Assembly: GCA_964016885.1 (NCBI GenBank)
Contig: OZ024743.1
Location: 337,032,001 to 337,096,000, forward strand
DNA: 64,000 bases
DNA from: Eledone cirrhosa
Lineage: Eukaryota
Reading direction: 5' to 3'
Shown here: piece after piece, positions 10,181 to 56,323 of the stretch
How positions within the stretch are numbered: the first letter of the stretch is position 1
Layout: every line of letters starts with the position of its first letter
Made by a program: the position numbers and the translations under genes
Notes under the pieces: model-generated
The model's input: only the letters and a program-made list of their open reading frames with translations
Databases searched by the model: none
Told to the model about the DNA's origin: nothing

Positions 10181-11426
10181 CTAGCAGCATGAGTGCCTGT
10201 TAAAAACTCACAAGTATCATAGCAGTAAGGCGTAGGCTACTTACCTCAAAAGTTCATTCGCACTCTTTCCACTAAGTTACTCTTTCTCTCTATCTCTCAG
10301 CACCTCCAATGAGAAACGTTTATTTGTGAGTGCCAGTTAAAAACTCACGAAAATATACCGACAGGAAACTTGTTTTATTTGGAGAAAATTAAGAAGTTGA
10401 AAGTATAGTTTAGCTCTCTACATGCATTGTTCATAGAAATATTGTTGAGCCCTTTCTTTTAATATCCTCTGTTTTGGCCTATTGGAGTAAATGTGAAAGA
10501 GAAAGTCACAGGTTAAGTTGGCAGAAGGTTCCAGTGTCATAGCAGTAAGGCGTAGGCTACTTACCTCAAAAGTTCATTCGCACTCTTTCCACTAAGTTAC
10601 TCTTTCTCTCTATCCCTCTCAGTGCAGTCCCTTGAGAATTTCTCACGTAGGCCTGGTGTAGATTTGCACCCAATCCATCTGCCCGATGCACATGTCCGCT
10701 TTGTACGGCTTTTGGAGGAAGGAGTGACCAGCAGTAGGTTGTTCGGTATTATTACGAAAAGGTGTAGCAGATAATCCCGCGTGAACTAAAAGCTCAGGAG
10801 GAAACTGCTTACCTCGAAGATTCATTTGCCATCGTTCTTGTCAACGCTCCGTTTAGCTGGTATTTGTTGGTCTACAGTTAGATGAATGGCGCACAAAGGG
10901 TTAATGTTTATTGGCAAGAAGTGCAACTAGGCTGGCTTGCCTCGCTTATATTATATATATTAAAATAACAGATTAAAGTTTAAGCAAAGAATCGCTGCTT
11001 TCACCCTTAACGGGATCTTCTGAAACTAAATAAATCAATCTGTGAACGCAGAAGTAAATATTTCGAAAATTGTTGCAACCGAAGGAAAGCAGGAAGACGA
11101 TACTTTGGTTCGTGAAGACGTTCCCTGGCAATGAACGGAAAATAGCGAACATAATATGTCATCAATGTTTGTCAGAATGTCGTAATGCAGACAGCCGGGC
11201 ATACAGACAGATATTATAAGGGCGCGACGGAGAGGGATAACCGGCACCTAACACCCCTTTAACAACGGAAAATTGAAAAATAAAAGTTGCAGTTAATATC
11301 TTTAGACCACAAGGAATATATAAATGCAAGTTTGAAGTCAATCGGAGTAGAAATGTGGATTTGTATAGACTTTGCAAAAATGAGGACACACACACAGACA
11401 ACTACAGTTTTATATATATGTATAGA
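10181..11426 (-). mobile_element. Non-autonomous Helitron-like element with nested insertion
   Basis: Minus-strand 5' TCTATACATATATATAAAACTGTAGTTGTCTGTGTGTG and 3' CTAG next to (TA)n. Internal ~85-bp duplication (10217-10300 and 10537-10620). The 3' hairpin is not evident. Confidence 0.5.
10950..11250 (-). mobile_element. PLE pseudo-LTR remnant with degenerate minimal hammerhead (10985-11030)
   Basis: Minus strand reads CAGAAGA-TCCC GTTAA GGGT-GAAA-GCAGC, followed by an AT-rich tail ending in (TA)n. Confidence 0.45.
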
Positions 11427-11756
11427 TATCACATAATAAACGGAGAATCAGTGGTGAGACGAATTAAAATTTATTAGACATATTACAATCGTTTCTCTGA
11501 CGACCAACACGAGGCACGATCGATGCGATGATCGAACCTGGCTCTGAAGTCGCAAGATCCTCAGATATGTCTCGATTTTTTGAGTTGGAAACTCTGCTTC
11601 GAAAAATCGAGACATATCTGAGGATCTTGCGACTTCAGAGTCAGGTTCGATCATCGCATCGATCGTGCCTCGAGTTGGTCGCCGGAGAAACGATTGTAAT
11701 ATGTCTAATAAATTTTAATTCGTCGCACCACTGATTCTCCGTTTCTTATGTGATAT
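11426..11756. repeat. ~330-bp near-perfect palindrome made of two head-to-head hammerhead-containing PLE ends
   Basis: Arms are reverse complements (the ORF track gives near-identical peptides on both strands); centre ~11591. Confidence 0.95.
11610..11706 (+). ncRNA. Type I hammerhead ribozyme motif with extended stem II (mirror copy on minus strand ~11476-11572)
   Basis: AGACATAT-CTGAGGA-[TCTTGCGAC...GTCGCCGGA]-GAAA-C GATT G-TA-ATATGTCT: perfect 8-bp stem I, GUA site, AATAAA immediately downstream. Confidence 0.88.
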
Positions 11757-11860
11757 TATACTCTGGTCTGTAAGTGCATCGAGTGCTCAAATAGCCTACC
11801 GCATACGGACGCTTTATGCATCCCACACCAATTATATATATATATATATATATATATATA

Positions 11861-54964: not shown

Positions 54965-55672
54965 GTAGAACACTGGAAGGTAATATCCGTAGTGGTAGAG
55001 CACTCAGTCTTTGTATATATACTTTTTATAACTTTCTTCTTTCATGTTCACTATCCCACCACCTCATTAACTCCTTATAGCGTAAGTCCCCTTAATAATC
55101 CCTTACCACACCCAACACTCCACCCAATAGTAAAACACTGCAATATTTCATCTAGTATCATAAACCGCACCACCACCACATCAACACCCCACACAGAACA
55201 TCACCCTCAACACATACATGCCAACTTGTCTAGGGACAGTCAAAACGCCATACCCCGCCACTCACATCAACCTCTGCTCCTCACCACCTGCTCATCACTA
55301 CACTCACCACTACCTACACTACAGGTGAATACATTCCTCATAATTAACCCACCAATCAAAACAACTTTTACTGACCAGCATATGATAATTAGACTTTTTC
55401 CTACGCCATATACATTCATTTTGTCATTACTACCACAGAGGTCCGACGAGCCATTGATTACAGAGTCAGGCTAGATCGATACAGATCGAACCATGAGCCG
55501 TTCAATAGCGAAACGTGTGTCACCAACCAATAAACGTAATGAAGGAGTAACCATTCGTCCTTGTTTTATTATACTACACTCTGTCTAGCTCTACACCTCG
55601 ATACTGATGTGAACCTAAAGATCGAGTGCTCACCCGGGTGAACTTACAGCAACTCTGTGTTACACTCTCTGG
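54965..55672 (+). mobile_element. PLE 3' end / solo pseudo-LTR
   Basis: C/A-rich region followed by a hammerhead, AATAAA and a (TA)n flank. Shares ATCGAGTGCTCA with 11778-11789. Confidence 0.6.
55440..55524 (+). ncRNA. Type I hammerhead ribozyme motif (CCGACGA variant) with extended stem II
   Basis: GGT-CCGACGA-[GCCATTGA...TCAATAGC]-GAAA-C GTGT G-TC-ACC; AATAAA 4 nt later. Confidence 0.75.
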
Positions 55673-55724
55673 ATATATATATATATATATATATATATAT
55701 ATATATATATATATATATATATAA

Positions 55725-56323
55725 ATAAAATCAGGTCTAGCAAGTAGAGAAAGAGTTTTAAAATAAATTTTTAAAAGTTTGCTGTACTTACTATATGTTG
55801 CTTTACCGTGCGGTTTCGAATCCCAAAATAAACAGATAATCCAAGCGGATTTCCATTGGGAAGGGGAGTCTCGTCAGAAGGCTCTTCTCACTTGGAGAAT
55901 ATAAAATTCCCGAGTTCAAATCACAAACTGCCGCTATACATATACTTTATTATTATTAATCTCCCCTAAGGTTGAGATAACATTTGGTCGTTTGTACTGC
56001 TGCTATTTCTAGTAGCAGGACATTGACCTGTCCACCCTGCCTTTTGTCTTTACACACGGCACTAGACAAAATTGTTTCTTTCATCATTTACTCTCATCCG
56101 GGAACAGTTTTGTATGGCGCCAGTTTGTGATTTGAACTCGGGAATTTTATATTCTCCGAGCGAGAACCTTCTGACGAGACTCCCCTTCTCAATGAAAATC
56201 CGCTTGGATTATCTGTTTATTTTGGGATTCGAAACCGCACGGTAAAGGCACATATAGTAAGCACAGCAAACTTTTTAAAATTTATTTTAAAACATTTTCT
56301 CTATTTGCTAGACCTGATTTTAT
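55725..56323. repeat. ~215-bp inverted repeat pair (170-bp spacer), each arm carrying a hammerhead
   Basis: 55725-55940 is the reverse complement of 56110-56323; the element is flanked by (TA)n. Confidence 0.93.
56167..56248 (+). ncRNA. Type I hammerhead ribozyme motif with branched/extended stem II (mirror copy on minus strand ~55800-55882)
   Basis: CCTT-CTGACGA-[GACTCCC...GGGATTC]-GAAA-CCG CA CGG-TA-AAGG. Confidence 0.85.

What the first reader, a model, noticed from the sequence alone, without database searches (positions are those of the whole stretch)
11426..56323. Four long palindromes from three families are all built from head-to-head hammerhead ribozymes
Seen: inverted repeats at 11426-11756, 17611-18019, 22805-23078 and 55725-56323 each have a CTGANGA...(G/C)AAAC...GTA hammerhead in the right arm and its mirror (truncated at 22.8 kb) in the left arm. 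All sit in or beside (TA)n tracts and have no coding sequence. At 17.8 and 22.9 kb the fold-back point lies at the 5' strand of stem I; at 11.6 kb it is ~25 nt upstream of the core. Established: Penelope-like elements carry hammerheads in pLTRs, favour microsatellites and produce inverted pLTR fragments. Inference: either reverse transcription repeatedly folds back just past the ribozyme core, or these are a self-propagating class of tiny palindromic, retrozyme-like non-autonomous elements. Two copies of one family with almost the same centre fit either reading. A read-through transcript from either strand would form 90-215 bp of dsRNA that competes with ribozyme folding and is a candidate ADAR or Dicer substrate.
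Basis: partly seen in the sequence, partly recalled or inferred. Interest (0 to 1): 0.72.

Follow-up and report, generated by a model that had tools for sequence, protein, structure and literature searches.

The report
Back-to-back stubs of Penelope retroelements
The four palindromes are real back-to-back stubs of abundant ribozyme-bearing repeats, three from Penelope-like jumping genes and one from a retrozyme-like repeat, likely made when both ends of one DNA cut each prime a copy of the RNA, and in two of three families they meet at one spot that likely marks where the RNA starts.

Summary
All four palindromes and their type-I hammerheads are real, but they are not a self-propagating palindromic class. 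A and B/C are 3' termini of Hydra-type Penelope-like elements (RT/GIY-YIG ORF about 2 kb upstream). D is a 484-nt tandem, retrozyme-like monomer. Each family has two fixed 3' ends. Palindromes pair one of each (A 35 of 40, B/C 37 of 39, D 17 of 19), and the tail-less arm often reaches further 5', which argues against simple cDNA fold-back. 5' ends pile up at -7 (B/C) and -35 (A) but scatter in D. Best reading: both target ends prime reverse transcription and run off the RNA start (initiator-like CA; Penelope-type DPE at +28 in A). Unexpected: a SINE end abuts that same -7 base at 535 sites, and sampled junctions were independent insertions. No RNA evidence was obtained. Inverted copies plus a tail are known PLE features. 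The scan reported the same architecture and the run-off idea on other DNA of this genome.

The parts
11426..11583 (-). Family A inverted arm, short 3' end (+136), 5' end about -19 (C of CUGA = 0); hammerhead 11564-11484
11585..11831 (+). Family A forward arm from -33 to the long end (+214); hammerhead core 11618-11698; tail about 11754-11831; DPE-like site 11610-11615 (AGACAT here, AGACGT in 45 of 65 arms)
17480..17810 (-).
17816..18019 (+). Family B forward arm from -7 to the short end (+193); hammerhead 17823-17947 with a 106-nt stem II and C.A at 10.1-11.1
22802..22889 (-). C inverted arm (B sibling subfamily), stops inside stem II; neither canonical 3' end
22890..23078 (+). C forward arm from -7 to the short end; hammerhead 22897-23016 with G12>C (predicted inactive)
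55725..55940 (-). Family D inverted arm, short end (+154), 5' end about -63
55938..56425 (+). Family D forward arm, about one 484-nt monomer; hammerhead 56171-56244; ends at the long end (+264) with an internal deletion in the tail

Best explanation
Each palindrome is one insertion of two head-to-head, 5'-truncated copies of a hammerhead-bearing repeat, likely made by a Penelope-like RT/endonuclease that primes cDNA from both ends of a cut in (TA)n at two fixed RNA sites, with the copies likely running off the RNA's start in A and B/C. Shown: parents of A and B are RT/GIY-YIG PLEs with long 3' UTRs; D is a tandem 484-nt monomer; two fixed 3' ends per family; mixed-end pairing; 5'-end peaks at -35 and -7; diverse junctions; in B/C both arms from one subfamily. 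Inferred: two-ended priming, end-joining of the two cDNAs, and that the peaks are pLTR transcription starts. The hammerhead sits at the centre because it lies just downstream of that start; most templates are uncleaved. D has no fixed 5' end, as expected for a multimeric or circular template (inferred). If the internal promoter survives in full arms, the two arms would fire outward and give single-arm RNAs, not hairpins (inferred).
For: Parents: B ORF ends at -2103, contiguous with the arm; A GIY-YIG C-terminus about 1.8 kb upstream in 5 of 16 long copies. Mixed ends: A 35 of 40, B/C 37 of 39. In samples not chosen by the tail: 20 of 24 and 24 of 26, P 8e-4 and 5e-6 against 50%; D 17 of 19 classed pairs (hand counts; P). 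Long B copies: 10 of 10 with a mapped inverted arm, of 13 examined. Tail-less arm reaches more than 10 nt further 5' in 21 of 35 (A) and 10 of 37 (B/C). Peak in B/C: in the first 100 matches by position, 27 end in -14..0 against 2.1 expected (P 4e-21), 19 end in +1..+112, none in -15..-59; mode -7. Peak in A: 19 of 56 end in -36..-29, 5 further up; mode -35. D: 2 of 71 in -14..0. Both peaks sit on CA (initiator likeness recalled). A has AGACGT at +28 in 45 of 65 arms; Penelope's DPE is RGACGTGY (PMC2377424, passages). Arms of one locus are more alike than arms of different loci: 0.981 vs 0.920 (B/C), 0.939 vs 0.916 (A). A purified PLE nicks and extends both strands, starts RT at two sites that define the tail, and uses uncleaved RNA (PMC11167929, parts 1-2 of 4).
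Against: No RNA 5'-end data. The cap-derived G test is inconclusive: G 11, A 9, T 9 before 29 ends at -7, most G explicable by the partner arm; in A, C 6, A 5, T 5, G 2 before 18 ends at -35. I saw no DPE at +28 in B/C (by eye). The -7 base is also a DNA insertion hot spot for a SINE, so a nick could set the ends. The partner arm is the nearest sequence in only 3 of 15 A and 12 of 22 B/C palindromes. Eight B/C or A palindromes share junctions or have like ends (5 and 3 loci share two junction types; 7 of 79 are short/short or long/long). Identity-ranked samples favour young copies.
Confidence: 0.7

Rival explanations
1. Insertion is two-ended as above, but the 5' peaks are set by an endonuclease nick at ATT in the element's own DNA (during integration, or by later collapse of longer palindromes), not by a transcription start.
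For: Both peaks begin with ATT; the anole PLE endonuclease prefers 5'-ATT-3' (PMC11167929). A TSD-forming SINE abuts exactly -7 at 535 sites, with 22 distinct junctions of 23.
Against: Neighbouring ATTAT sites at -50, -46 and -27 had no arm ends and no SINE in the 100-arm sample. A's site lacks ATTAT and has 0 SINE ends in 65 arms. The DPE match in A is not explained. An open promoter would also explain the SINE.
Confidence: 0.15
2. One cDNA folds back on itself just past the ribozyme and is copied again (first reader, reading 1).
For: Arms share private variants. One or two B loci fit a stem-I fold-back geometry (arm ends near -6 and +131; L017). The peaks coincide with the 5' edge of a predicted folded domain.
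Against: 31 of 72 mixed-end palindromes have the tail on the 5'-shorter arm. Partnerless arms end at the same spots. A's peak is 27 nt upstream of stem I. D shows no peak.
Confidence: 0.07
3. The palindromes themselves are a self-propagating, retrozyme-like class (first reader, reading 2).
For: Two junction types recur in 5 and 3 loci. D is a retrozyme-like monomer.
Against: 15 junction types in 21 loci (hand count). Arm lengths vary freely up to kilobases. The hairpin is predicted to suppress the hammerhead fold by 108-158 kcal/mol.
Confidence: 0.04
4. The palindromes are assembly artefacts.
For: No public contig piece spans a centre, which proves nothing either way.
Against: Arms differ by up to 7% and have different ends. 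A, B and D palindromes recur in a duplicate about 92 kb away with their own differences. The short/long rule holds across many contigs.
Confidence: 0.03

Closest known systems
Hydra clade of C-terminal EN+ Penelope-like elements (Craig et al. 2021, PMC8557442; passages and section 11)
   Same: RT plus C-terminal GIY-YIG, CxCX5C linker, CxxC and CxH motifs, hammerhead near the 3' end, (TA)n targets, adjacent inverted 5'-truncated copy, tail at one end.
   Different: 3' UTRs of about 2 kb before the hammerhead; tails of 78 and 133 nt, not 30-40; hammerheads with 62-106-nt stem II; most A copies are 250-nt stubs with a fixed 5' end. The passages read do not describe strict short/long pairing or a 5'-end peak.
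Poseidon PAc of the green anole in vitro (Frangieh et al. 2024, PMC11167929; parts 1-2 of 4)
   Same: Two RT start sites define the tail; both strands are cut and extended; uncleaved RNA is the template.
   Different: Different clade. The parts read do not link the two start sites to the two arms of inverted insertions and do not map 5' ends.
Animal non-LTR retrozymes (PMC7229834, passages; bioRxiv 10.64898/2026.07.22.740005, part 1 of 5)
   Same: D is a non-coding head-to-tail monomer with one type-I hammerhead per unit; PLE mobilisation was proposed there.
   Different: Monomer of 484 nt is above the 170-400 nt quoted; most copies are 0.4-1.8 monomers; D shows PLE-type ends and inverted arms directly; no circular RNA shown.
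LINE-1 twin priming and two-RNA inverted insertions (PMC11702581, passages)
   Same: Both target ends are extended by RT and the cDNAs are end-joined, with microhomology or untemplated bases.
   Different: L1 arms cover adjacent, non-overlapping RNA parts with microhomology priming; here both arms cover the same RNA part from two fixed sites.

Membership tests
Hydra-clade PLE (parents of A and B/C) | Single ORF with RT and C-terminal GIY-YIG | tested here: met
   B: 680-aa RT-EN frame in L210, 40-56% like the window's GIY-YIG element; Pfam itself gave no hit for it. A: only the EN C-terminus is held.
Hydra-clade PLE (parents of A and B/C) | CxCX5C linker, CxxC and CxH, no CCHH | tested here: met
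   Read by eye in the translations for B and A against section 11.
Hydra-clade PLE (parents of A and B/C) | N-terminal RWK and DKT motifs | not tested
   N-termini of the A and B parents were not fetched; DKT and an RWR motif are present in the neighbouring family (L207).
Hydra-clade PLE (parents of A and B/C) | Placement in the Hydra clade on an RT tree | not tested
   No reference Hydra sequences were held.
Hydra-clade PLE (parents of A and B/C) | (TA)n insertion, inverted 5'-truncated copy, tail | tested here: met
Type-I hammerhead of PLE type | Conserved core with helices I-III and self-complementary helix III/loop 3 | tested here: met
   A, B, D right arms; C fails at G12. B/C has C.A at 10.1-11.1 in most copies, with a compensatory change at the next pair in 8 of 76, not the usual G-C (PMC4209133, passages).
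Type-I hammerhead of PLE type | Self-cleavage | not testable with these tools
   Indirect only: 9 B arm ends within -3..+20 of the predicted cut against 2.0 expected; not in A (5 vs 2.6) or D.
Non-LTR retrozyme (D) | [quoted passage not shown] | tested here: met
   6 of 49 non-redundant loci; the window copy has one per arm.
Non-LTR retrozyme (D) | No coding capacity; monomer closes on itself | tested here: met
   The tail runs into the next monomer with a period of 484 nt; no ORF of 120 aa overlaps it.
Non-LTR retrozyme (D) | Expressed as linear and circular monomer RNA | not testable with these tools
Non-LTR retrozyme (A, B/C) | Tandem hammerhead monomers | tested here: not met
   Upstream sequence is a PLE 3' UTR, not another monomer.

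The most novel reading that the evidence does not exclude
Penelope-like elements integrate by obligatory two-ended priming, one target end at each RT start site, so these palindromes record the whole cycle: both RT starts, the RNA's first base and, in B, the ribozyme cut. Full-length 200-330-nt arms keep an internal promoter and act as SINE-like donors, the same machinery copies retrozyme RNA, and the start nucleotide is so exposed that another SINE has hit it hundreds of times.
Probability: 0.45. Interest if true: 0.7.

Novelty: new variant of a known kind. Interest (0 to 1): 0.52.

Why it matters
How PLEs build tandem/inverted insertions and tails is named as an open task in PMC8557442. The short/long pairing, seen here in three unrelated families, gives a sharp test for the existing in vitro system: each target strand should be extended from a different RNA site. 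The 5' peaks predict exact RNA starts. D links retrozyme mobilisation to PLE enzymes by anatomy. The elements themselves are selfish repeats; no host function is indicated.

Tried and rejected
RNA: no RNA holder listed. Contigs of four runs (one study) laid on A and on the centre of B: no piece spans a centre; one joint links an inverted arm to a forward arm at -33 but has only 26 letters on its shorter side. Fossil A-to-I editing: no A>G excess in 15 A palindromes (A>G 15 against C>T 59, G>A 54, T>C 37); flagged B/C arms were subfamily differences. Cap-G: inconclusive. One search was meant to count arms ending at -10, but 29 of 30 loci were sibling subfamilies with a templated T, so that count was not used. 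Splice acceptor at helix I, as in D. virilis: AG is present in B but absent in C-type copies, rejected. Rfam microRNA hits were all below gathering score and reflect hairpins and (TA)n. Rows dropped before counts: duplicate-segment loci L002, L092, L122 and the repeat locus L164 where stated (L002 is still inside 37 of 39); 6 SINE-carrying arms counted apart in the 100-arm sample; 7 D pairs with an unclassed end; 7 of 30 SINE loci whose upstream host the script did not parse. Literature: searches listed no paper that by title or abstract start treats the short/long pairing or these families; the library lacks most subscription papers and no supplements were read, so Hydra consensus files of PMC8557442 may already hold these families.

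Full report
Observation. The four inverted repeats are present, each with a type-I hammerhead in the right arm. My descriptor gave 6 rows on both strands of the window, 5 of them in these palindromes. C has G12>C. Helix III/loop 3 is self-complementary in A, B and most D copies, as in dimer-acting PLE hammerheads (PMC4209133, passages). A head-to-head pair puts only one sense ribozyme on each strand, so it cannot supply the dimer partner (inference). Positions below count from the C of CUGA.

Families. All are abundant: 860, 2854 and 1633 candidates for B, A and D, and 5228 exact matches to the B/C hammerhead 3' half. Long B copies run into a 680-aa RT plus C-terminal GIY-YIG frame ending at -2103. 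Five of 16 long A copies carry a GIY-YIG C-terminus about 1.8 kb upstream, and their 2.4-kb join is shared at 81-87% identity. Both show the CxCX5C linker of the Hydra clade (PMC8557442 section 11); no tree was built. C is a sibling subfamily of B. D has no such parent: its tail continues into the next 484-nt unit, and 6 of 49 loci hold two hammerheads in tandem.

Two 3' ends. Each family ends at a short or a long site, typically abutting (TA)n: A +136/+214, B +193/+326, D +154/+264. Palindromes pair one of each in 35 of 40 A and 37 of 39 B/C loci. Because tail-based samples force one long end, I counted the other samples apart: 20 of 24 and 24 of 26 (hand count; P). D gives 17 of 19 classed pairs, and long B copies 10 of 10 among 13 examined. 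The window's A, B and D follow the rule, so they are longer than first stated. In 21 of 35 A and 10 of 37 B/C mixed pairs the tail-less arm reaches further 5'. A fold-back copy cannot hold a tail that its template lacks, so two primings are needed (inference). This fits the anole PLE, which cuts and extends both strands and starts at two sites bounding the tail (PMC11167929). In B/C both arms of a locus come from one subfamily, and arms share some private variants in both families, so they derive from one RNA or one source locus; gene conversion is not excluded.

5' ends. Among the first 100 B/C matches by position, 27 end in -14..0, 19 in +1..+112, 48 beyond -59, none in between, and 6 carry a SINE at -7; 2.1 were expected in the peak. 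The mode is -7. Tail-selected samples agree: B 21 of 60, A 19 of 56 at -36..-29 with only 5 further up. D is scattered, 2 of 71 in -14..0 and at most 7 in any 15-nt window. Partnerless arms end at the same spots, and 21 near-perfect B/C palindromes have 15 junction types (hand count). So the peak belongs to the template, not to the palindrome. Both peaks sit on CA, and A has AGACGT at +28 in 45 of 65 arms, matching six bases of Penelope's DPE (PMC2377424); the +28 spacing rule and the initiator consensus are recalled. B/C lacks the DPE by eye, and the cap-G test (signature recalled from LINE-1 work) was inconclusive. B alone shows a second pile at the predicted cut, 9 against 2.0 (window chosen after seeing the data), which may mean some templates were cleaved.

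A complication. A SINE of about 185 nt, which makes target-site duplications and prefers ATTAT (76 of 112 ends), abuts -7 at 535 sites, with 22 different 5' junctions in 23 parsed loci of 30. Nearby ATTAT sites at -50, -46 and -27 had none in the 100-arm sample, one lay near -263, and A has none at -35. An open promoter would explain both the arm ends and the SINE, but a DNA nick at ATT is a live rival.

dsRNA. Folding predicts the hammerhead 3.8-9.1 kcal/mol above the best single-arm fold and 108-158 above the full hairpin. A read-through RNA would therefore be a hairpin, but outward transcription from internal promoters would not make one (inference). No editing trace was found in the DNA copies sampled, and no RNA run was available.

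Verdict. These are real insertion products of known element classes, with a regularity that makes an open mechanistic question testable. Two-ended priming about 0.85, RNA-start origin of the peaks about 0.65-0.7. Earlier unchecked notes of this scan report the same ideas on other DNA of this genome; two further look-ups, for the SINE hot spot and for the B arm, returned nothing.

Noticed in passing
L399-L428; L308, L315-L317, L324, L369: A TSD-forming SINE abuts base -7 of the B/C terminus at 535 sites, nearly all sampled junctions different, with repeated insertions at the same site in several loci; it is the same base where truncated arms peak.
   Followed up: partly
window 18815-22525: A separate, frameshifted Hydra-type PLE (RT, GIY-YIG, 1.7-kb 3' UTR) with its own minimal hammerhead at 22436-22480, ending in (TA)n; a 963-aa open relative lies in L207.
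   Followed up: partly
window 6404-7874 and 36619-38040: Further broken PLE frames, one Hydra-like and one of another type (Neptune-like by recall, untested).
   Followed up: no
L002, L032, L062: The stretch holding A, B and D recurs about 92 kb upstream on the same contig at 98-99.6% identity: a segmental duplication or an unmerged haplotype.
   Followed up: partly
window 28695-29293, 52121-52773, 5255-5737, 49756-50485, 46305-46361: Other short-range inverted repeats without a hit from my hammerhead descriptor.
   Followed up: no
window 30380-46815: Two oppositely oriented LINE copies (AP endonuclease and RT frames) forming a large imperfect inverted repeat.
   Followed up: no
L015/L016: A B palindrome with a short internal duplication at its centre and about 18 nt of flank inverted on both sides of the (TA)n tracts.
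   Followed up: no
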